A stretch of DNA of 64,000 nt from Halobacteria archaeon (lineage in GTDB: Archaea; Halobacteriota; Syntropharchaeia; JACQPP01): assembly GCA_038869515.1 (NCBI GenBank), contig JAWCQZ010000003.1:126884-190883 (forward strand), in the 5' to 3' direction. Of the stretch, positions 9,041 to 17,800 are shown piece after piece. The first letter of the stretch is position 1. Every line of letters starts with the position of its first letter. A program made the position numbers and the translations under genes. A model generated the notes under the pieces. That model saw only the letters and a program-made list of their open reading frames with translations. It had not been told where the DNA came from and did no database searches.

Positions 9041-10396
9041 ATGGGGACGGAACTCTCCCCCGTGGTTCCCCGGAGGCCCGGCTCCCAATTGATTCCCGCC
9101 TCCGCCCTCCTCTCCCCCCGGGAGGCCGAGGAGGTCTTCCACGCGGGCGGCGAGGCCATCTGCGTCGCATGCAAGGGGGCTCACCTCCTCTGCGGCAAGG
9201 AGCGGTGCCCCATCCTGACGCGGCTCGCGCTCTTCCAGGCTGCGCGGCCCCTCTTCGAGACCACCGAACTGGCGGGCGCGACACCGCCCGGCGTCTTCGT
9301 CGGGCGGATGGGATACCCGAAGGTGACCATCGGGCCGCTCGTCCCGCCGGTGGGCGGGGACACCACCATCCTCGACATGCCGGAGCAGTGGCTCGGCAAG
9401 CCCATCGAGGAGATCGCCTCGATGCGCTTCTCGCTGGTCCGGGGGAAAATCCGGGTCAACGCCTGCGAGGTGGAGACCTCGGGCAGACTCGTGGACATGA
9501 CCCGAGAGCTGGCGATGGCCGCCTCACCCGCCGACATCGAGGCGGAGTTCACCAGGAAGCCCGCGGGCAAGGTGGTGGTGAACGAGGACTCCCAGCCCTT
9601 CGGCCCCTCGGCGCCACTCAAGGCGCTCGATCTGGGCGACCTGAAGGTGGACCAGCGCATCGAGAAGAGATACGGCGACACCGACCTGAAAGCCAAAGGC
9701 GCAGTCCTCGACCTCTACCGGGACGGCCTGCCGGTGTCGCGCATCCAGCGCTCCTTCAGCGCGGGGCTCTTCGGGTTGAAGAAGAACCGCCACTTCGTCC
9801 CGACTCGCTGGTCCATCACCGCGGTGGACAACGCCATCGGCCTAGACCTCGTCGCGAAGGTGAAGCGCGCCCCCGAAATCAACGAGTTCCGCATCTACGA
9901 GGCGGGCAACCTCGACAACCGCTTCCTGGTCCTCATGCTCCCGATGGCGTGGTCCTACGAGCTCATCGAGGCGTGGTATCCGAACACCCTCTGGAACCCC
10001 CTCGGGAGGCGGACGGTGATTTTCGGGGATTGCGAGTTCTACGAGGGGCGGACCACCTACGCTCAAATCGGCGGATGCTACTATGCGGCACGCCTCGCCG
10101 TCGGCGAGTGTTTGACGAAGGAGAACCGTCAGGCGCGGGTCGTCATCCTCCGGGAGGCCCACCCGGGCTATATCATGCCGGTGGGGGTGTGGAACGTGCG
10201 GGAGACGGTGCGGGAGGCGCTCCGCCACGAGCCGAGGAGGTTCGACCGGCTGAGCGAGGCGCTGGCGCACGTGACGACGCGGCTCGACATACCGCTGGGG
10301 ACGTGGATTCGGCACAGCGGGTTGCTGAGGGATGTGCGAAAACAGAGGCGGTTGGTGGATTTTGCGGAGAAGAAGGAGAGTCTAAGAAATGTTTGA
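9041..10396 (+). CDS. Nre-family DNA-repair-associated protein-like (DUF650/DUF651-like)
   Basis: 451 aa; N-terminal Cys cluster ICVACKGAHLLCGKERCPIL, then a conserved central region; assignment from memory of archaeal Nre proteins, not searched. Confidence 0.55.
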   Translation: MGTELSPVVPRRPGSQLIPASALLSPREAEEVFHAGGEAICVACKGAHLLCGKERCPILTRLALFQAARPLFETTELAGATPPGVFVGRMGYPKVTIGPLVPPVGGDTTILDMPEQWLGKPIEEIASMRFSLVRGKIRVNACEVETSGRLVDMTRELAMAASPADIEAEFTRKPAGKVVVNEDSQPFGPSAPLKALDLGDLKVDQRIEKRYGDTDLKAKGAVLDLYRDGLPVSRIQRSFSAGLFGLKKNRHFVPTRWSITAVDNAIGLDLVAKVKRAPEINEFRIYEAGNLDNRFLVLMLPMAWSYELIEAWYPNTLWNPLGRRTVIFGDCEFYEGRTTYAQIGGCYYAARLAVGECLTKENRQARVVILREAHPGYIMPVGVWNVRETVREALRHEPRRFDRLSEALAHVTTRLDIPLGTWIRHSGLLRDVRKQRRLVDFAEKKESLRNV

Positions 10397-10787
10397 CTTT
10401 GAGCGAGATATGTGCTGTGGAATTGGGCTGTTCATAGGGATTTTTGCATTAATCGGAGGCTTCGTTTCGCTGTTGCCGCAACCATGGAGGGAGCCAGTCG
10501 CTTATGGATTGTCTGTTCCAACTTTGATAGTTCTCGTACTTTACATCTGGGGAACCGCGAAGACTCACGAAGTTCGCGAAAAGGCAGAAGAAACTCGCTT
10601 AAGAGGACTAACCGAGCCTGAATCATTCCTAATCCCCAAATGGAAGAGGAAAGAAATGAGCAGTTCAGAAAGGAAGTGCCCTAGTTGTAAATCTACAGTT
10701 CCGCCTGGAGTCAATATTTGCGGAAGTTGCGGGCATGACTTTTCAATTGACGAGCTTCGGAGGCAGACTAAGTCTCGCGGCGATTGA
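10389..10787 (+). CDS. Small membrane protein with C-terminal zinc ribbon, encoded in a low-G+C segment
   Basis: 132 aa; two TM helices then CPSCKS…CGSCGHDF; codon usage A/T-rich at position 3 (ttt, gat, aaa, tta), unlike flanking genes. Confidence 0.5.
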   Translation: MFDFERDMCCGIGLFIGIFALIGGFVSLLPQPWREPVAYGLSVPTLIVLVLYIWGTAKTHEVREKAEETRLRGLTEPESFLIPKWKRKEMSSSERKCPSCKSTVPPGVNICGSCGHDFSIDELRRQTKSRGD

Positions 10788-10870
10788 GCCGAGTTGCGCA
10801 CCCGACAATCAACTTGTTCTTCTTGCGTAGCCCCCTTGCGCTCGCGCGCGGGCCCTTCATGGGTCGCGGG

Positions 10871-11098
10871 CTATTCCAACAGGCGGAGAAACTCTTCCAC
10901 AGTGAACCCCGCCTGCCGGAGGATGGCTCGCAGGGTCCCCCGCGAGACCTCCGCATGGGCGGGGACGGTCAGAGGCGGCCGCTCAGGGTGGCGCAGGTGG
11001 ATGTGGCTGCCCTTCTGGTCGCGGACGTAGTATCCCGTTTTGCCCAGGGCCCGGAGGACTTCCCGCGCCGACAAAACGGGCAGCCGGGGCACCGCCAA
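10871..11098 (-). CDS. hicA: Type II toxin HicA (mRNA interferase)
   Basis: 75 aa; LSAREVLRALGKTGYYVRDQKGSHIHLRHP…LTVPAH…LRAILRQAGFTVEEF matches the HicA/YcfA fold. Confidence 0.8.
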   Translation of the reverse strand: MAVPRLPVLSAREVLRALGKTGYYVRDQKGSHIHLRHPERPPLTVPAHAEVSRGTLRAILRQAGFTVEEFLRLLE

Positions 11099-11317
11099 TC
11101 ACACGGCGACCGAAACGGTGACCTCTTTGACCTTCGCCGACGGGCGGATGGGGAGGCCGTCCTCGGCCAGGGACTTCAGGTGCAACTCGATGGCCTCCTT
11201 GATGTTCCGCTTGGCATCGGCCACGGTCTTGCCTTGGGAGATGCAGCCCGGCAGGCTCGGCACGGTGGCCACATACCATCCGTCCTCTTCCTTCTCGAGG
11301 TGGACCTTGAACTTCAT
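11099..11317 (-). CDS. hicB: Antitoxin HicB
   Basis: 72 aa from ATG at 11317 (MKFKVHLEKEEDGWYVATVPSLPGCISQGKTVADAKRNIKEAIELHL…), HicB/UPF0150 signature; track start 11449 is an extension across a repeat; TATA-like ATTTAATAGG about 25 bp upstream. Confidence 0.75.
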   Translation of the reverse strand: MKFKVHLEKEEDGWYVATVPSLPGCISQGKTVADAKRNIKEAIELHLKSLAEDGLPIRPSAKVKEVTVSVAV

Positions 11318-11496
11318 CGCCCAATTGTGGGTTTTCAAGCCTATTAAATCTTCACGCCCGCGGGCTGTGCCCGAGAACTCCCCGCAGGAAGTGAACCCGC
11401 AGCTCTCGCACGCTCGCGCGCGGGCCCTCCGGGGTCGCCACTCGCGCAAGCGCGGGGGCTCCCCCGGGCCCGCGCTTGTTGCCGTCCCCCGACGCC

Positions 11497-11530
11497 TTTA
11501 AATACCATTGAATCAATTGATTCAATTGAA
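11497..11530 (+). promoter_or_regulatory. TATA box plus 23-bp palindromic operator upstream of the antitoxin/RelE pair
   Basis: TTTAAATA at 11497-11504; palindrome TTGAATCAATTGATTCAATTGAA at 11508-11530; ATG at 11534. Confidence 0.45.
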
Positions 11531-11533
11531 CCC

Positions 11534-11737
11534 ATGCCCCTCACCACCGTCTCCCTCAAGCCCGAGACCTTGGCGAGCCTGCGGGCCTACAAGGTGGGCG
11601 GGGCGTCCTACGACGACGTCCTCAACGATTTGATGGACGACCACCCCCCCGCGACCTTCGTGCAGGAGCACCTGCGGCGCCTCCGGGAAGAGGAGCGCAG
11701 CGACTGGGAGTCGGCCAAGCGAAAACTGAAGGTCTGA
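11534..11737 (+). CDS. Putative type II antitoxin (partner of the RelE/ParE-like toxin)
   Basis: 67 aa; directly upstream of and 10 bp from the toxin gene; …SYDDVLNDLMDD… resembles archaeal antitoxins. Confidence 0.6.
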   Translation: MPLTTVSLKPETLASLRAYKVGGASYDDVLNDLMDDHPPATFVQEHLRRLREEERSDWESAKRKLKV

Positions 11738-11746
11738 GCCGGGGCC

Positions 11747-12016
11747 GTGGCGCCCTTCGAGGTCCAACTGACCCGGAGCGCCGAGAAGGAGTTGTCCAAG
11801 TTGCCCCGGGAGGCCATCCTGCGGTTCGCCGCGGCCATCGACCGACTTCGGGAGGACCCGAACCACGCGCGGCCCGGCGTGGATGTGAAAAAGCTGAAAG
11901 GGACCCGCTCAGCGTGGCAGCTGCGGGTCGGGGACTACCGGGGCATCTACGAGGTCGAGGGGGACAGGGTCGTGTTCACACGGTTCGCCCACCGGTCGAA
12001 GGTTTACCGAGTGTAG
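11747..12016 (+). CDS. RelE/ParE-family type II toxin
   Basis: 89 aa; …WQLRVGDYRGIYEVEGDRVVFTRFAHRSKVY matches the RelE/ParE C-terminal fold. Confidence 0.8.
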   Translation: MAPFEVQLTRSAEKELSKLPREAILRFAAAIDRLREDPNHARPGVDVKKLKGTRSAWQLRVGDYRGIYEVEGDRVVFTRFAHRSKVYRV

Positions 12017-12017
12017 T

Positions 12018-12452
12018 TCACTTCGCTTGCCCCTTCTTCTTCATCTCCCCGGGGACCGCGTCCATGTCCATGTAGAACGGCTCCCAGATGTGCCCGTCGA
12101 GGTCCTGGAAGGCGCGCCCGTACATCCACCCGTAGTCCTGCTTCTCCCGGTACTCACGGCCTCCCGCGGCCACGGCGCTTTTCAGCATCTCGTCCACCGC
12201 CTTGCGGCTCTCGAGAGAGAGCGCGACGAGGACCTCGGTGCTCTTTTTTGCATCACATATCTCCCGGCCCGGGAGGAACCCCTTGAAGAATTTCTCCGCC
12301 AGCAGCATGGCGAACATGTTCTCCCCGACGACCATGCACGCCGCGTTGTCGTCGGTGAACATCGGGTTGAACTTGAAACCCAGTTTGGCGAAGAATGCGG
12401 TCGTCTTCTTGAGGTCTTTGACCGGCAGGTTGACGAAAATCTTGTCCGCCAT
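12018..12452 (-). CDS. VOC-family (glyoxalase/bleomycin-resistance fold) protein
   Basis: 144 aa from ATG at 12452 (MADKIFVNLPVKDLKKTTAFFAKLGFKF…); the track N-terminal extension has poor codon bias. Confidence 0.75.
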   Translation of the reverse strand: MADKIFVNLPVKDLKKTTAFFAKLGFKFNPMFTDDNAACMVVGENMFAMLLAEKFFKGFLPGREICDAKKSTEVLVALSLESRKAVDEMLKSAVAAGGREYREKQDYGWMYGRAFQDLDGHIWEPFYMDMDAVPGEMKKKGQAK

Positions 12453-12466
12453 CCGCCCCGCGGGCC

Positions 12467-12595
12467 TCACCCCATCCCCATCTTCTTGGCGAACTCCTTC
12501 GCCCGTGCCTTGACCGCCTTGGCGGCGTCCCGGGCGCAGAACGCGGGGGCGAGGGCGCGGTAGCCGTCGGGGATGGGCATTGCTCCGGGGGCCAT
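12467..12595 (-). CDS. Candidate leaderless mini-ORF (42 aa) upstream of the VOC gene
   Basis: Hand-translated (below the track length cut-off): ATG at 12595 sits about 25 bp downstream of TATA box ATATAAAAAAA (12616-12626, minus-strand sense); frame has strong codon-3 G+C; no family recognised. Confidence 0.25.
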   Translation of the reverse strand: MAPGAMPIPDGYRALAPAFCARDAAKAVKARAKEFAKKMGMG

Positions 12596-12671
12596 CCAAC
12601 TCCCCCCCGCCCGGGATATAAAAAAACTACCCGAAGGTCGCCCGGATGCGGCCCCCGGTCCCGAGGGGACC

Positions 12672-12842
12672 CTAGAGGTCTGCGGCCCGGATGGTGGAGC
12701 GGCCGTTGGCCTTGGCCCTCTTGGCCGCGGTGGCCAGGAGGTCCGCGACCGCCTTGTCGAGGGCGTCGTAGAGGTCTCCCGAGACCCGCATGCCTTTGGG
12801 CGCCTTGGCCTTGACCGCCGATTTGACGACGAGTCCTGCCAT
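12672..12842 (-). CDS. Small basic protein, possibly histone-fold/DUF1931-like DNA-binding
   Basis: 56 aa from ATG at 12842 (MAGLVVKSAVKAKAPKGMRVSGDLYDALDKAVADLLATAAKRAKANGRSTIRAADL); TATA-like element about 25 bp upstream; family assignment tentative. Confidence 0.45.
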   Translation of the reverse strand: MAGLVVKSAVKAKAPKGMRVSGDLYDALDKAVADLLATAAKRAKANGRSTIRAADL

Positions 12843-12961
12843 AGGGGGTCCCACGGCAGAAGTGCCTAAAAACCCTGCGGTCCTCCCCGGGGGCGCGGGG
12901 CCTGTTTTCCGAGGGAGTTGGGACGAAGTTCATTATCCAGCGGCCGCAAACCCGCCCCAGG

Positions 12962-13987
12962 ATGGCGACCCGGCCCCCTCCCCCCGTAGGGATGGTCCTG
13001 TGCGGCGGCCACGGCAAGCGCCTCATGCCCTTGACCCAGGACATCCCCAAGCCCCTCGTGGAGCTCCGGCCCGGATACACCATCCTCGACCGGCAACTCT
13101 TCGACTTCTCCGCCGCGAACATCAACAGGGCCATCCTGCTGACCGGGCACCTCGGCGACAAGATAGAGAAGCGGTACGGGAAGGAGTTCAAGGGCGTGAA
13201 AATCGAGTACTCGGTGGAGGAGGAGCCCAAGGGGACGCTCTTCGCCATCCGCCAGGGCATGGAGATGGCCGGGCCCGGGACGGAGGTCGTGGTCCGGAAC
13301 GGCGACGTGGTCGCCGACGTGAACCTGATGAAGATGATGGCCCACCACCATCGCCACCGGGGCGGGCTCAAGGCGACGATGTTCGTCACTCGGATGCGCT
13401 CCCCCTACGGGATCGTCGAACTCGAAGGCGAGCGCATCCGCTCCTTCCGGGAGAAGCCCATGCTCGACCAGCACATCAACGGGGGCATCTACTGCCTCTC
13501 GCCCGGCATCCCGATGGACGGCTACGACCGGGGCGAAATCGAGAAGACGGTCTTCCCGGCACTCGCGCAGAGCGGAGAACTGGGCCACTACCGGGAGGAG
13601 GGTTTCTGGCTCGCGGTGGACACCGTGAAAGAATTGGAGGAGGCCCGGAAGGAGTACTCGAACCGGGAGGACAAGCCCTGGGGCTACGAGAAGGTCCTCG
13701 TCCGGACGGAGAAGTACATGACCAAGGAGCTGTTCATCCGTGAGGGCTACTCGACGAGCGTCCACTACCACAAGGAGAAGGACGAGACCCTCTACGTCCA
13801 GAGCGGGACGCTCGCGGTCGAGTTCAAGGACGGGGTCAAGAAGACCTTCAACCGCAACGACTCATTCCGGATCACGCCCGGGATGCACCACCGGCTCATC
13901 GGCCTGGAGAACGTGGTGCTCCAGGAGGTCTCGACGCCGCAACTCGACGACACGGTGCGGGTGAAGGACTTCTACGCGGCTCGATGA
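12962..13987 (+). CDS. Sugar-phosphate nucleotidyltransferase with C-terminal cupin domain (mannose-1-phosphate guanylyltransferase-like)
   Basis: 341 aa; N-terminal GGxGxRL nucleotidyltransferase motif (LCGGHGKRLMPLT), C-terminal cupin region; start could be the downstream ATG. Confidence 0.8.
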   Translation: MATRPPPPVGMVLCGGHGKRLMPLTQDIPKPLVELRPGYTILDRQLFDFSAANINRAILLTGHLGDKIEKRYGKEFKGVKIEYSVEEEPKGTLFAIRQGMEMAGPGTEVVVRNGDVVADVNLMKMMAHHHRHRGGLKATMFVTRMRSPYGIVELEGERIRSFREKPMLDQHINGGIYCLSPGIPMDGYDRGEIEKTVFPALAQSGELGHYREEGFWLAVDTVKELEEARKEYSNREDKPWGYEKVLVRTEKYMTKELFIREGYSTSVHYHKEKDETLYVQSGTLAVEFKDGVKKTFNRNDSFRITPGMHHRLIGLENVVLQEVSTPQLDDTVRVKDFYAAR

Positions 13988-15999: not shown

Positions 16000-16042
16000 G
16001 AACGGCCTTCTTTTTCAATCCATGATATAGCCTGTGGCCCCG

Positions 16043-17800
16043 ATGTCTCCCGGGTCCGTCCCGGCCGCCCTCCTGCTCGCCGTCCTGGCGGCCGCTTCCG
16101 CCCAGGACGCGGCGCCCTCCCTCGGCCTCTCCACCGACCTGGGGGACGTGGCTCTGGAGGCCGGGGTGGAGAGGACCTTCGCGGTGGCGGTGACCAACCT
16201 CCGCGACCTCCCTCTTCCGGTCCGCATCAGCGTCGCCGGGGCCGCCGAAGCGCTCGCGGGCCCGCCCCTGGAGTTCACCCTCGGTCCCGAGGAGCGGCGG
16301 GAGGTGCAGCTGCGCCTCAACTCGACGAGGCCCGGAACCTACCTGGGGACCCTGGTGGCCCAGGGAGGCGGCGACCGGCGCGAAATCCCCTTCCAGGCCC
16401 AGGTCCGGGTCACCCTGACCGGGCAGCCCGTGGCCCTCCGGGTCGAGCCCGGGAGCCTGAAGGCCGGGGAGGTCCTCACGGTCCTCACCTCGCCCCGGGT
16501 CTCCGTGCCCCTCCCGGGCGCCCTCGTCCTCTGGAGCGAGGACGGGACCCTCCTCTCGGAAATGGACCTCGACTTCTCCGTGCCCCGGAACGTGACCCTG
16601 ACCATCCCCGCGGGAACGCCCCCGGGGAGGGTGAGCGTCGAAGCCGCGGTCCCGCGCCTCGGCTCGGCGGTCCAGACCGTGACCGTCCTCCCCACGCCAT
16701 TCCCGACCTACCTGCTGCTCCTCCCCGCCGGGGCCGCCGCGGGCGTCGTTCTCCTCCGGTGGCGCGAGGAGCTCGCGGCCCTCCTGGCGGGGAACCGGCG
16801 CTACCCTCCCCTGACCGCCTACGGGGAGTTGCCCCGGGGCCCCTTCGCCGTGGGGCGGGTGGCGGGCAGCCGCAAGCGGTTCGAACTGGGACCGGAGCAC
16901 CTGCGGGGCCACGTCCTGGTCGCCGGGGCGACCGGCGGGGGCAAGAGCGTCGCGGCGATGGTCCTGGCCGAGGAGGCCCTGCGGCAGAAGTGGGCGGTGG
17001 TGGTGTGCGACCCCACCCTCCAGTGGACCGGCCTCCTCCGGCCCTGCGGCGATGCGGGCCTCCTCCGGCGCTACAGACTCTTCGGCATGGGGGAGGCGGG
17101 AGGCTGGCCGGGGGCCCGGAAGGAGGAGCCGGAGTTCGACCCGGGGGACCTGGTCCCGGGGCGCCTCCTCCTCTACGACTTCGGCGACGACTACGACGGG
17201 AATCTCGCCCGGCTGCTCGACCGGTTCCGGGTCGCCGGGAGCCCCCGCGTGCCCCTCCTGGTGGTCCTGGAGGAGATTCACCGGGCCCTCCCCAAATACG
17301 GCGCCCCGAGCCAGCTCTACCCGCTCCTGGAGAGCGTGGTCCGGGAGTTCCGCCACCGGGGCATATCCCTCATCCTGACCTCCCAACTGCTCTCCGACTT
17401 CAGTTCCGAAATCGGCGACAACATCCTGACCGAGATTCAGATGCTCACCAAAGGCCCCGAGGACCTGACGCGCTTGGAGAAGAAGTATGGCGCCGCCATG
17501 GCCCGGCTCGCGACCCGCCTCGAGCCCGGCGCGGGGCTGTTGCACCACCCCCAGGTCAACGGGGGGCTGCCGGTGGCGGTGGAGTTCCGGCCGACCCTGG
17601 GGGAGCCCCACAAACTGCCGGGCCCCCTGCTCGAGCGGTGGCGCGACCTGTGGGCCAGGCACGGGAGGCTGGCCGCGAAGGTGCGCGCCCCCGAGGGGGC
17701 CCAGGCCCTGGCCCGGGCCCGGGAGCGGCTGGAGACGCTGCGGCTCGAGATGGCCCATATCTATCTCGACGAGGCCGAGGGCGAGCGCAAGAAGCCTTAA
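16043..17800 (+). CDS. Membrane-anchored HerA/FtsK-like P-loop ATPase (DUF87-like) with N-terminal extracytoplasmic domain
   Basis: 585 aa from ATG 16043; signal peptide, about 200-aa extracellular region with N-x-S/T sequons, one TM helix, then cytoplasmic domain with Walker A GATGGGKS and Walker-B-like LLVVLEEIH. Confidence 0.65.
   Translation: MSPGSVPAALLLAVLAAASAQDAAPSLGLSTDLGDVALEAGVERTFAVAVTNLRDLPLPVRISVAGAAEALAGPPLEFTLGPEERREVQLRLNSTRPGTYLGTLVAQGGGDRREIPFQAQVRVTLTGQPVALRVEPGSLKAGEVLTVLTSPRVSVPLPGALVLWSEDGTLLSEMDLDFSVPRNVTLTIPAGTPPGRVSVEAAVPRLGSAVQTVTVLPTPFPTYLLLLPAGAAAGVVLLRWREELAALLAGNRRYPPLTAYGELPRGPFAVGRVAGSRKRFELGPEHLRGHVLVAGATGGGKSVAAMVLAEEALRQKWAVVVCDPTLQWTGLLRPCGDAGLLRRYRLFGMGEAGGWPGARKEEPEFDPGDLVPGRLLLYDFGDDYDGNLARLLDRFRVAGSPRVPLLVVLEEIHRALPKYGAPSQLYPLLESVVREFRHRGISLILTSQLLSDFSSEIGDNILTEIQMLTKGPEDLTRLEKKYGAAMARLATRLEPGAGLLHHPQVNGGLPVAVEFRPTLGEPHKLPGPLLERWRDLWARHGRLAAKVRAPEGAQALARARERLETLRLEMAHIYLDEAEGERKKP

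What the first reader, a model, noticed from the sequence alone, without database searches (positions are those of the whole stretch)
10340..12020. Compact accessory island: low-G+C zinc-ribbon membrane gene, HicAB and an antitoxin/RelE pair
Within about 1.7 kb sit a compositionally foreign small gene, a HicB-HicA module and a second antitoxin/RelE-ParE module, wedged between an Nre-like repair gene and a VOC gene that converges on relE with a 1-bp gap. Clustered toxin-antitoxin modules with a foreign-composition gene are the usual footprint of a defence or addiction islet and often sit beside uncharacterised defence genes. The low-G+C zinc-ribbon membrane protein is the candidate cargo with unknown function.
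Basis: partly seen in the sequence, partly recalled or inferred. Interest (0 to 1): 0.65.

Follow-up and report, generated by a model that had tools for sequence, protein, structure and literature searches.

The report
Toxin-antitoxin islet with foreign orphan gene
Between two core genes of an uncultured high-G+C archaeon sit two ordinary toxin-antitoxin pairs and one recently imported, never-annotated small membrane zinc-ribbon gene; sister lineages carry a different foreign gene in that slot, so this is a small gene-swapping hotspot and not a recognisable defence system.

Summary
Bases 10340-10830 are the only strongly low-G+C stretch in the 64 kb (0.46 against a mean of 0.69). They hold a 132-codon ORF with two predicted transmembrane helices and a CxxC...CxxC zinc ribbon. 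It is followed by hicB-hicA, an antitoxin/RelE pair and a convergent VOC gene 1 bp from relE.

- Only the 132-aa ORF is compositionally foreign (GC3 0.45, CAI z = -9). The toxin-antitoxin (TA) genes have native composition.
- PADLOC finds no defence gene, and about 76 kb of gene calls show no integrase or transposase.
- The ORF has no full-length homologue in 1.8 billion representative proteins. It was never called as a gene in the public records.

Two things are new here. Sister lineages (Nre 88-91% identical) carry a different, unrelated low-G+C orphan ORF in the same slot after nre. That slot is closed on its right by a 30-45-nt repeat (R), and a second copy of R flanks hicBA in the window. 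More distant relatives have a radical SAM gene there instead.

Best reading: a small replacement hotspot holding two canonical type II TA modules. An integron-like reading failed its tests. Interest is modest.

The parts
9041..10396 (+). nre (archaeal Nre DNA-repair family), the conserved left flank. Homology with relatives ends at about 10370, inside the last ~8 codons.
   Evidence: Pfam Nre_N/Nre_C. Alignment with L001. blastn with L011, L012 and L001 ends at 10367-10374.
10340..10830 (.). Low-G+C foreign block (G+C about 0.46), the only such block in the window.
   Evidence: minimum 0.458 against mean 0.692 and sd 0.041. No DNA match in phages and no other copy in the window.
10375..10378 (+). 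GGAG Shine-Dalgarno-like motif 10 nt upstream of the ORF132 ATG. There is no TATA box in front, so expression is inferred to ride on the nre transcript.
   Evidence: Read directly from the sequence; inference.
10389..10787 (+). ORF132, an orphan 132-aa protein. It has two predicted TM helices (about residues 9-29 and 37-55), a charged helix, and a CPSC...CGSC zinc ribbon (96-118). It is not annotated in the public records.
   Evidence: zinc-ribbon families. (hydropathy; ORF length reached in 74 of 5000 shuffles). (AF2 helices 4-26 and 31-75; pLDDT about 80 over the ribbon). (only zinc-ribbon hits). (not in the protein collections). (gap in the gene calls).
10826..10870 (+). Repeat R, copy A (exact core 10839-10856, CGCTCGCGCGCGGGCCCT). 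It lies between the ORF132 stop and the hicA stop.
   Evidence: family D4; 18-nt exact match, E about 5e-5 in 64 kb. The same repeat follows the alternative cargo ORF in L011.
10871..11098 (-). hicA toxin (75 aa from TTG; public call is 73 aa from GTG at 11092). The GSH motif is present.
   Evidence: PF07927, 66.7 bits. PDB 1WHZ 2e-8 and HicA 6G26/4C26. PHROG 353.
11099..11317 (-). hicB antitoxin, short form (72 aa). It has only the N-terminal HicB/UPF0150 domain and no DNA-binding domain.
   Evidence: PF15919 and PF21748. It matches only residues 1-61 of the 92-142-aa HicB structures 6G1C/6G1N.
11322..11348 (-). hicBA promoter region: TATA-like TTTAATA (11348-11342) 31 nt before the ATG, and CAATTG (11327-11322) 4 nt before the ATG. 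A leaderless transcript is predicted.
   Evidence: Sequence read. CAATTG is rare in the window (6 copies). The promoter role is an inference.
11398..11476 (+). Repeat R, copy B (exact core 11411-11428), extended into an imperfect G+C-rich palindrome. It lies between the divergent hicB and antitoxin promoters.
   Evidence: (D4, I7, I8). The fold is not better than shuffles (z = -1.5).
11498..11526 (+). Antitoxin/relE promoter: TATA box TTTAAATA (11498-11505) and a perfect 20-nt palindrome ATTGAATCAATTGATTCAAT (11507-11526), the putative operator, ending 7 nt before the ATG.
   Evidence: (I17, 100% palindrome). The region is conserved in a relative, as seen in the N-terminal extension of P0284. 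The operator role is an inference.
11534..11737 (+). 67-aa antitoxin candidate. The predicted layout is a short N-terminal strand region, two helices and a long C-terminal helix, which is RHH-like. Its family is unassigned.
   Evidence: DUF7557 only at E=0.003, below cut-off. No PDB sequence or fold match. AF2 secondary structure. It is co-conserved with relE in 92-94% variants.
11747..12016 (+). relE-type toxin (RelE/StbE subfamily of the RelE/ParE superfamily).
   Evidence: PF05016, 43.3 bits. TIGR02385, 30.3 against 27.9. PDB M. jannaschii RelE3 3BPQ 5e-8 and P. horikoshii 1WMI 7.5e-5, with the C-terminal HR..VY aligned to HRKSIY.
12018..12458 (-). VOC/glyoxalase-bleomycin-resistance-fold gene, convergent on relE with a 1-bp gap. 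Composition is native. It is absent next to the NDP-sugar operon in relatives, so it probably belongs to the variable stretch.
   Evidence: PF22677 and PF00903. for relatives. GC3 0.88.
12467..12854 (-). Two small called genes: 42 aa with no family, and a 60-aa ORF (called as 56 aa in the public record) with a weak DUF1931 match. They lie between VOC and the conserved NDP-sugar transferase, which starts at 12962. This is the likely right end of the variable stretch.

Best explanation
This is a small lineage-specific flexible islet, about 10370-12900. It lies between two core genes, nre and an NDP-sugar transferase/UDP-glucose dehydrogenase operon. The host is an uncultured high-G+C archaeon, most likely of Ca. 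'Aerarchaeales' (Syntropharchaeia, GTDB order JACQPP01). The islet has four parts.

1. A variable slot directly 3' of nre. In this strain it holds a recently imported, un-ameliorated orphan gene, ORF132, encoding a two-TM hairpin with a cytoplasmic zinc ribbon. The gene has no promoter of its own and overlaps the nre stop, so it is inferred to be expressed by translational coupling. Sister lineages carry an unrelated low-G+C orphan ORF in the same slot, also overlapping the nre stop. The slot is closed on the right by a 30-45-nt repeat R. The swap is best explained by recombination between the conserved flanks (the nre 3' end on the left, R and beyond on the right). This makes it a 'replacement' hotspot.

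2. hicBA, a type II TA pair with its own TATA promoter, bracketed by two R copies. This suggests it entered by recombination at R.

3. A 67-aa antitoxin plus a RelE-type mRNA interferase. They are transcribed from a TATA box followed by a perfect 20-bp palindrome that would serve as the autoregulatory operator.

4. A VOC gene and two tiny ORFs.

How it works:
- Shown: gene identities, composition, the repeats, and non-conservation in relatives.
- Inferred: the TA pairs work in the canonical way. HicA and RelE would cleave mRNA when their labile antitoxins are lost, which stabilises the stretch. ORF132 would be a membrane-tethered zinc-ribbon accessory protein of mobile-element origin. Its role is not determinable here.
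For: Gene identities.

Foreign composition limited to ORF132.

ORF132 looks like a real gene.
- Its length is reached in only 74 of 5000 shuffles of the block.
- It has two hydrophobic 19-mers and a CxxC...CxxC motif that hits zinc-ribbon families.
- A GGAG motif lies 10 nt upstream.
- It is identical in independent assemblies.

Orphan status. Neither ORF132 nor the alternative cargo was ever called as a gene.

Alternative cargo in the same slot.
- L011:10297-10746 has G+C 0.447 and GC3 0.46, against nre GC3 0.89.
- It is homologous to the partial ORF in L001 and unrelated to ORF132.

R is at the same junction in L011 and occurs twice in the window.

The contigs of all four closest relatives end 100-490 nt after nre, as expected at a strain-variable junction.

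Context in relatives.
- More distant relatives have nre followed by a radical SAM gene, behind a NUDIX gene in L002.
- In a relative the right-hand anchor has different neighbours, plus a vapBC pair inserted elsewhere.

The TA genes are native in composition, and antitoxin/RelE variants at 92-94% identity exist elsewhere with the promoter palindrome conserved.

Taxonomic context: L013 is GCA_016207465.1, which is MAG CG-2 of Ca. 'Aerarchaeales' (PMC12533140). A CuMMO operon lies on the same contig.
Against: - R has been seen in only two lineages. The L011 contig stops inside R, so what follows R in any relative is unknown.
- Whether hicBA, relE or VOC are present at this place in sister lineages could not be established.
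- ORF132 has no homologues, so there is no conservation or selection evidence that it is expressed. Its best Pfam score is 0.9 bit below the gathering cut-off.
- The promoter, operator, leaderless-transcript and translational-coupling statements are sequence inferences.
- No toxicity or neutralisation data exist.
- The 67-aa protein has no family or fold assignment.
Confidence: 0.7

Rival explanations
1. Integron-like cassette array (a CALIN). On this reading R is an attC-type recombination site, and ORF132 and hicBA are mobile cassettes captured by an integron integrase acting in trans.
For: - Two direct R copies bracket a 572-bp TA unit, and R closes the variable slot in two lineages.
- Archaeal integrons are mostly CALINs, and TA genes make up 10.5% of their functionally annotated cassette proteins (PMC9668308).
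- Copy B is part of an imperfect palindrome.
Against: - No R''/R' core pair (RYYYAAC ... GTTRRRY, at least 6 of 8 motif positions and 6 of 7 complementary, 50-150 nt apart) exists on either strand in 10300-12100.
- Copy A has no palindromic partner.
- The fold of copy B is no better than shuffled sequence (z = -1.5).
- No tyrosine recombinase appears in about 76 kb of gene calls.
- There are only two copies in 64 kb.
- There is no repeat after relE.
- The genes are not co-oriented.
Confidence: 0.06
2. The low-G+C block is not a gene. It would be a non-coding scrap of a degraded mobile element or foreign DNA, and the 132-codon ORF is fortuitous.
For: - No homologue anywhere.
- Gene callers skipped it.
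- GC1, GC2 and GC3 are flat, with no strong codon-position periodicity.
- The Pfam zinc-ribbon scores are just under the cut-off.
- The AF2 model has only moderate confidence (pLDDT 67.6).
Against: - An open frame this long arises in only 1.5% of shuffles.
- The ORF fills the block almost exactly.
- It starts on the nre stop with a GGAG motif 10 nt upstream.
- It encodes a coherent architecture: two TM segments, a charged linker, and a CxxC-17-CxxC motif that matches several zinc-ribbon models and many zinc-ribbon proteins.
- The sister lineage's slot likewise holds one ORF that fills its low-G+C block and overlaps the nre stop.
Confidence: 0.15
3. Anti-virus defence islet. The TA pairs would act as abortive-infection modules, and ORF132 would be a membrane sensor or effector of an undescribed defence system.
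For: - Two TA modules lie within 1.2 kb, while none is called elsewhere in about 76 kb of gene calls.
- RelE and HicA/HicB families occur as phage morons.
- A relative has cas1-like/cas2 next to the right-hand anchor gene.
Against: - No PADLOC family matches any of the seven proteins.
- No known defence gene appears in the surrounding gene calls.
- ORF132 is not conserved, even between sister lineages.
- Nothing links ORF132 functionally to the TA pairs. It lies in the nre transcription unit and on the opposite strand to hicBA.
Confidence: 0.08

Closest known systems
HicAB type II toxin-antitoxin systems (HicA PF07927; HicB PF15919/UPF0150), e.g. Burkholderia pseudomallei HicAB (PDB 6G26) and Thermus TTHA1913 (1WHZ)
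   Same: - HicA domain with the GSH motif.
- HicB N-terminal domain.
- The two genes are adjacent, 0-6 nt apart, in one operon with its own promoter.
   Different: - HicB is only 72 aa and lacks the C-terminal RHH/HTH DNA-binding domain of the characterised HicBs. Autoregulation by HicB itself is therefore not expected.
- The gene order is antitoxin first.
Archaeal RelBE (Methanocaldococcus jannaschii RelB3-RelE3, PDB 3BPQ; Pyrococcus horikoshii aRelB-aRelE, 1WMI)
   Same: - An 89-aa RelE/StbE-subfamily toxin with the C-terminal HR...Y motif.
- A small upstream antitoxin gene 9 nt away.
- A palindromic operator at the promoter.
   Different: - The 67-aa antitoxin has no detectable sequence or fold match to RelB or any solved antitoxin.
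- It shows only a sub-threshold DUF7557 hit.
Replacement-type flexible genomic islets, and TA-stabilised variable regions such as the TA cassettes of chromosomal integrons
   Same: - Conserved flanks with different, unrelated foreign genes in the same slot in sister lineages.
- TA modules sit beside the slot.
- Short direct repeats lie at the junctions.
   Different: - Very small: one gene per slot.
- No attC sites and no integrase.
- The repeat R is not a known recombination site.
Membrane-anchored zinc-ribbon proteins (Pfam Zn_ribbon_3 / DZR / UPF0547 class)
   Same: A C-terminal CPxC-(17)-CGxCG ribbon of the common 'zinc-ribbon' type. N-terminal TM helices also occur in some hits, e.g. P0125.
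   Different: - No full-length homologue.
- Similarity is limited to about 30 residues of a promiscuous motif.
- Scores fall just under the Pfam cut-offs.

Membership tests
HicAB type II TA | Toxin with the HicA domain above the curated threshold | tested here: met
   PF07927, 66.7 bits against a 27 cut-off. PDB HicA matches.
HicAB type II TA | Catalytic histidine of HicA (GSH motif) | tested here: met
   The query KGSHIHL aligns with 1WHZ KGGHRLY and with the GSAHH segment of 6G26. That the aligned position is the catalytic His is my own knowledge of the HicA literature and was not tested here.
HicAB type II TA | Adjacent antitoxin with the HicB N-terminal fold | tested here: met
   PF15919, 49.5 bits, and PF21748, 34.5 bits. 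6G1C 1.6e-7. The genes abut.
HicAB type II TA | HicB C-terminal DNA-binding domain (RHH or HTH) for autoregulation | tested here: not met
   The protein is 72 aa. It aligns only to residues 1-61 of the 92-142-aa HicBs, and no DNA-binding family is hit. Stand-alone HicB domains are known (UPF0150), so this is a variant and not an exclusion.
HicAB type II TA | Toxicity of HicA and its neutralisation by HicB | not testable with these tools
   Needs expression experiments.
RelE/ParE superfamily, RelE/StbE subfamily | Toxin domain above the curated thresholds | tested here: met
   PF05016, 43.3 against 23. TIGR02385, 30.3 against 27.9.
RelE/ParE superfamily, RelE/StbE subfamily | RelE-type C-terminal catalytic motif (R/H ... 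Y), as opposed to ParE | tested here: met
   HRSKVY aligns with HRKSIY of M. jannaschii RelE3, 3BPQ. The functional meaning of the motif comes from established RelE literature (own knowledge).
RelE/ParE superfamily, RelE/StbE subfamily | Cognate antitoxin of a recognised family immediately upstream | tested here: inconclusive
   A 67-aa gene lies 9 nt upstream and is co-conserved with relE. It has only DUF7557 at 17.3 bits against a 25 cut-off, and no PDB sequence or fold match.
Integron / CALIN | attC sites with R''/R' cores and a single-strand hairpin | tested here: not met
   No qualifying R''/R' pair on either strand in 10300-12100. The fold of copy B has z = -1.5. The IntegronFinder covariance model was not available.
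Integron / CALIN | Integron integrase (IntI) nearby | tested here: not met
   No recombinase family appears among the called genes, which run from about 8.5 kb before window position 1 to about 57 kb. The rest of the genome was not examined.
Integron / CALIN | At least two repeats separating short cassettes | tested here: met
   Two R copies 572 nt apart bracket hicBA.
Zinc-ribbon domain (Pfam PF13248 and relatives) | Score above the gathering threshold and four Cys ligands | tested here: inconclusive
   26.1 bits against 27. CPSC-x17-CGSC is present. The hits in the 1.8-billion-protein search cover almost only the ribbon region, with one exception over the TM region (P0124, residues 4-35).
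Known anti-phage defence systems (PADLOC-DB v2) | Any component model matched | tested here: not met
   0 families for all seven proteins at E <= 0.01.
Horizontally acquired genomic islet | Atypical composition | tested here: met
   Met for ORF132 only (G+C 0.47, CAI z = -9.2). Not met for the TA genes or VOC.
Horizontally acquired genomic islet | Absent or replaced in close relatives | tested here: met
   Met for the slot after nre. For hicBA, relE and VOC the result is inconclusive, because the relatives' contigs end there. VOC/relE are absent beside the right-hand anchor in L017.

The most novel reading that the evidence does not exclude
The junction 3' of nre in Ca. 'Aerarchaeales'-like archaea is a dedicated cassette-capture site that is not an integron. 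The repeat R would be a new kind of recombination site. It would be used in trans to insert or exchange single foreign genes (ORF132, the alternative orphan ORF) and self-promoted TA cassettes (hicBA). The short HicB, which has no DNA-binding domain, would be co-regulated by the neighbouring antitoxin through the rare CAATTG motif shared by both promoters.
Probability: 0.1. Interest if true: 0.6.

Novelty: new member of a known kind. Interest (0 to 1): 0.3.

Why it matters
The TA modules are ordinary and add little by themselves. Three modest points have value.

- Missed genes. Two unrelated, compositionally foreign ORFs at the same junction in sister lineages were missed by every gene caller. 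Both are absent from a 15-billion-protein collection. Recent imports into high-G+C archaeal genomes can therefore be systematically invisible in protein databases.
- A concrete hotspot. This is a very small example of a replacement hotspot with a conserved junction repeat. It lies in a newly described archaeal order whose evolution has been attributed to horizontal transfer (PMC12533140).
- A testable regulatory idea. A HicB without a DNA-binding domain sits beside an antitoxin-controlled promoter that shares a rare motif with the hicBA promoter. This gives a cheap test of cross-regulation between TA modules.

None of these answers a long-standing question.

Tried and rejected
Homologues of ORF132. 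All searches found nothing beyond the ~30-residue zinc ribbon, apart from one hit to the low-complexity TM region (P0124).
- Word-indexed search of 5.8 billion proteins.
- Full HMMER scan of 1.8 billion representatives.
- Viral contigs.
- Phage DNA and protein searches. The only hit was a zinc ribbon inside a Streptococcus phage helicase.
- Plasmids.
- PHROGs, NCBIfam and PADLOC.

Structure.
- The single-sequence AF2 model of ORF132 (pLDDT 67.6) gave no significant Foldseek match in BFVD or PDB.
- The afdb50 library was unavailable.
- The AF2 model of the 67-aa antitoxin (pLDDT 68.3) gave no PDB fold match.

Repeat R elsewhere.
- No hit in viral contigs.
- The three JGI metagenome hits are chance matches inside a bacterial coding sequence.
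- No extra copy in the window, even with relaxed matching.

Integron reading: rejected on the motif scan and on the absence of an integrase.

Other signals.
- R as a stable RNA or terminator: the fold is not better than shuffles.
- Rfam finds only one tRNA-Ser, far away.
- The sigma-70 and terminator scan is uninformative for an archaeon.

The alternative cargo ORF of L011: no Pfam, PHROG, NCBIfam, PDB, plasmid or phage match.

Papers naming this assembly or its sequencing runs: none found.

Full report
**1. What is in the sequence**

ORF listing and Pfam give the following genes, left to right.
- nre, 9041-10396 (+): Nre_N and Nre_C, E=2e-93 and 5e-41.
- A 132-codon ORF, 10389-10787 (+), overlapping the nre stop by 8 nt.
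- hicA, 10871-11098 (-): PF07927, 66.7 bits.
- hicB, 11099-11317 (-): PF15919, 49.5 bits.
- A 67-aa ORF, 11534-11737 (+).
- A RelE/ParE toxin, 11747-12016 (+): PF05016, 43.3 bits, and NCBIfam RelE_StbE above its cut-off.
- A convergent VOC gene, 12018-12458 (-). Its stop codon is 1 bp from the relE stop.

**2. Composition**

- The window averages 0.692 G+C in 400-nt windows (sd 0.041).
- The minimum is 0.458, starting at 10351. This is the only place below 0.57 in 64 kb (profiles).
- At 60-nt resolution the dip runs from about 10320 to about 10800.
- The 132-codon ORF has GC1/2/3 of 0.49/0.47/0.45. Among ORFs of at least 80 codons it is the only one with low GC3 that is not the shadow of a real gene on another frame.
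- All neighbours have GC3 of 0.84-0.93, including hicA, hicB, the 67-aa gene, relE and VOC.
- A codon adaptation index built from 50 window genes gives 0.169 for the ORF (z = -9.2). The TA genes and VOC lie between z = 0 and z = -3.

The foreign composition therefore concerns one gene, not the whole 1.7 kb.

**3. Provenance and reality of the block**

- The window is part of contig JAWCRK010000003.1 of MAG GCA_038869275.1, labelled 'Halobacteria archaeon' at NCBI.
- The 8-14 kb stretch is identical in that record. The block and its context are also identical in independent Logan assemblies of two other sequencing runs. The low-G+C block is therefore not an assembly chimera.
- In all public gene calls there is a 475-nt gap between nre and hicA. 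The 132-aa product is absent from the 15-billion-protein collection under either possible start. The gene has simply never been called.
- Gene calls from about 8.5 kb before window position 1 to about 57 kb show core functions: Fpo/Nuo subunits, ribosomal proteins, F420 and pyrimidine biosynthesis, and ammonium transport. There is no integrase, no transposase and no further TA module.
- L013, the relative with Nre 69% identical, is GCA_016207465.1. Leu et al. identify this as MAG CG-2 of Ca. 'Aerarchaeales', GTDB order JACQPP01, class Syntropharchaeia (PMC12533140).
- The window's contig carries an AmoC/AmoA/AmoB-type copper monooxygenase operon 2-5 kb before window position 1. That operon is the hallmark the paper describes for the genus Ca. 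'Aerovita'.
- The organism therefore most likely belongs to that order. This is an inference.

**4. Is ORF132 a gene, and what is it?**

Evidence that it is a gene:
- An open frame of 133 codons arises in 74 of 5000 shuffles of the block.
- The ORF fills the block.
- It begins on the nre stop (ATGTTTGA), with GGAG 10 nt upstream and no TATA box.

Predicted protein:
- Two hydrophobic segments, about residues 9-29 and 37-55.
- A charged helix.
- A CPSC-x17-CGSC motif.
- AF2 predicts helices 4-26 and 31-75, and a small beta-ribbon with pLDDT about 80.
- More positive charge follows TM2. This suggests that both termini and the ribbon are cytoplasmic (inference).

Similarity searches:
- The zinc-ribbon Pfam families score just below threshold (26.1 against 27 bits).
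- A full HMMER scan of 1.84 billion representatives returns 39 hits. Apart from one hit to the low-complexity TM region, they cover only the ribbon, mostly in proteins with repeated zinc ribbons.
- Nothing else matched it.

ORF132 is an orphan whose function cannot be assigned. My commitment, at low confidence, is a membrane-tethered zinc-ribbon accessory protein that arrived from a donor of about 45% G+C, probably a virus or plasmid. It would be expressed from the nre transcript.

**5. Relatives: the slot is variable**

Four relatives' contigs end 100-490 nt after nre: three with Nre 80-91% identical (L001, L011, L012) and L013 at 69%. Nucleotide homology with the window stops at 10367-10374, inside the last codons of nre.

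In L011 (Nre 88% identical):
- The nre stop is overlapped (TAATG) by a 149-codon ORF with G+C 0.447 and GC3 0.46, against 0.89 for its nre.
- L001 (Nre 91% identical) has a homologue of that ORF.
- Its best alignment to ORF132 scores 32, against 164 for its alignment to the L001 homologue.
- It too has no family and no entry in the protein collection.

More distant relatives (Nre 56-69% identical) have a radical SAM gene after nre. It usually overlaps nre, and lies behind a NUDIX gene in L002. It sits in a cluster with DNA ligase and sometimes LigD Prim-Pol.

On the other side, a relative with the NDP-sugar transferase 82% identical has archease, cas2 and a cas1-like gene in place of VOC/relE. 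It also has a vapBC pair inserted between two genes that overlap in the window.

So the order of genes here is not conserved.

By contrast, the antitoxin/RelE pair exists at 92-94% identity on other small contigs. The promoter palindrome is conserved in one of them. This argues that the pair is an older resident of the clade. I could not retrieve those contigs.

**6. The junction repeat R**

- A direct repeat of about 45 nt occurs at 10826-10870 and 11398-11440, with an 18-nt exact core CGCTCGCGCGCGGGCCCT. The copies are 572 nt apart and bracket hicA, hicB and the hicB promoter.
- It occurs nowhere else in the window (E about 5e-5).
- The same sequence lies 16 nt after the alternative cargo ORF in L011, where that contig ends. 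There it is 20 nt identical to copy A, and 28 nt at 96% to copy B.
- R therefore marks the right edge of the foreign DNA in two lineages with different cargo.
- Its duplication around hicBA suggests that hicBA entered by recombination at R.

I tested the obvious analogy, integron attC sites. The analogy is plausible because archaeal integrons are mostly integrase-less clusters and are rich in TA cassettes (PMC9668308). It failed:
- There is no R''/R' core pair.
- The fold is no better than shuffles.
- Copy A has no palindromic partner.
- No integrase appears in about 76 kb.
- No repeat follows relE.

Searches for R elsewhere gave nothing relevant. R remains a local, unexplained junction repeat. 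A cluster of 8 substitutions at 10222-10247 in one assembly hints at recombination in the nre 3' flank, but could be an assembly artefact.

**7. The TA modules**

HicA:
- It aligns with solved HicA proteins and keeps the GSH motif.

HicB:
- It is the short 72-aa form, with only the N-terminal domain.

RelE:
- Its nearest solved relatives are archaeal RelE3 (3BPQ) and aRelE (1WMI), with the C-terminal HR...Y motif aligned.

The 67-aa partner:
- It has no family or fold match.
- It has an RHH-like secondary-structure pattern.
- It lies 9 nt upstream of relE.

Promoters:
- Both operons have a TATA-like box about 30 nt before the ATG, which predicts leaderless mRNAs.
- The relE operon has a perfect 20-nt palindrome between the TATA box and the ATG.
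- CAATTG occurs only six times in the window. Three copies are in these two promoters, 4-5 nt before each start codon. This prompts the speculative idea that the 67-aa antitoxin also controls hicBA.
- The mechanism (mRNA cleavage by the toxins, neutralisation and autoregulation by the antitoxins) is inferred from the families and is not shown here.

**8. Verdict**

This is a small flexible islet at a rearranged junction in core chromosome. It contains two canonical type II TA modules, a VOC gene and a single-gene replacement slot filled with unannotated foreign orphan genes. Nothing identifies it as a defence system. It is a new member of known kinds. The junction repeat and the invisible orphan genes are its only unusual features. 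Interest is 0.3.

Noticed in passing
L023:14717-17507 (same contig, 2.0-4.8 kb before window position 1; outside the window): A copper membrane monooxygenase operon (AmoC, AmoA and AmoB families) with an AurF-like di-iron gene beside it. It sits in an archaeon that also carries MTD and FpoO. This matches the 'hmo' complex described for Ca. 'Aerovita' / Ca. 'Aerarchaeales' (PMC12533140), so it is already published. It suggests that the NCBI label 'Halobacteria archaeon' is too coarse.
   Followed up: partly
window 11322-11327, 11514-11519, 11523-11528: CAATTG occurs only 6 times in 64 kb. Three copies sit 4-5 nt (and 14 nt) upstream of the start codons of hicB and of the relE antitoxin. HicB lacks a DNA-binding domain, so hicBA may be cross-regulated by the neighbouring antitoxin.
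   Followed up: partly
window 10389-10787 and L011:10297-10746: Two unrelated low-G+C ORFs in the same slot are absent from a 15-billion-protein collection, because gene callers trained on the high-G+C host skipped them. This is a systematic blind spot for recent imports.
   Followed up: yes
L002, L013, L020, L021, L022 (downstream of nre): In relatives with Nre 56-69% identical, nre is followed by a radical SAM gene. It usually overlaps nre, and lies behind a NUDIX gene in L002. In L020-L022 nre is preceded by a DNA ligase, plus LigD Prim-Pol in L022. This looks like a conserved repair cluster that has been broken up in the window's clade.
   Followed up: partly
window 10222-10247 compared with L009: One Logan assembly (SRR27730035) differs from the window by 8 substitutions packed into 26 nt of the nre 3' end, and is otherwise identical over 4.3 kb. 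This could be a gene-conversion tract from another allele or a local assembly chimera.
   Followed up: no
L017:1-4505: In a relative, the NDP-sugar transferase is preceded by a cas1-like gene, cas2 and archease. A vapBC pair (77 aa plus a PIN protein) is inserted between the transferase and the UDP-glucose dehydrogenase, two genes that overlap by 4 nt in the window (13984-13987). TA modules land at different junctions of this operon in different lineages.
   Followed up: no
window 12467-12595 (-) and 12672-12854 (-): Two tiny called genes lie between VOC and the NDP-sugar operon: a 42-aa product with no family, and a 56-60-aa product with a weak DUF1931 match (24.2 bits). They may be gene remnants marking the right edge of the variable stretch.
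   Followed up: no
window 16034-17800 (+): A 585-588-aa protein with a weak DUF87 (HerA-like ATPase) match lies about 4 kb to the right of the islet. It was not examined for a defence role.
   Followed up: no
L014, L015, L016: The only JGI metagenome matches to the 22-base R pattern lie inside a conserved coding sequence of an unrelated G+C-rich organism. They are chance matches and say nothing about R.
   Followed up: yes
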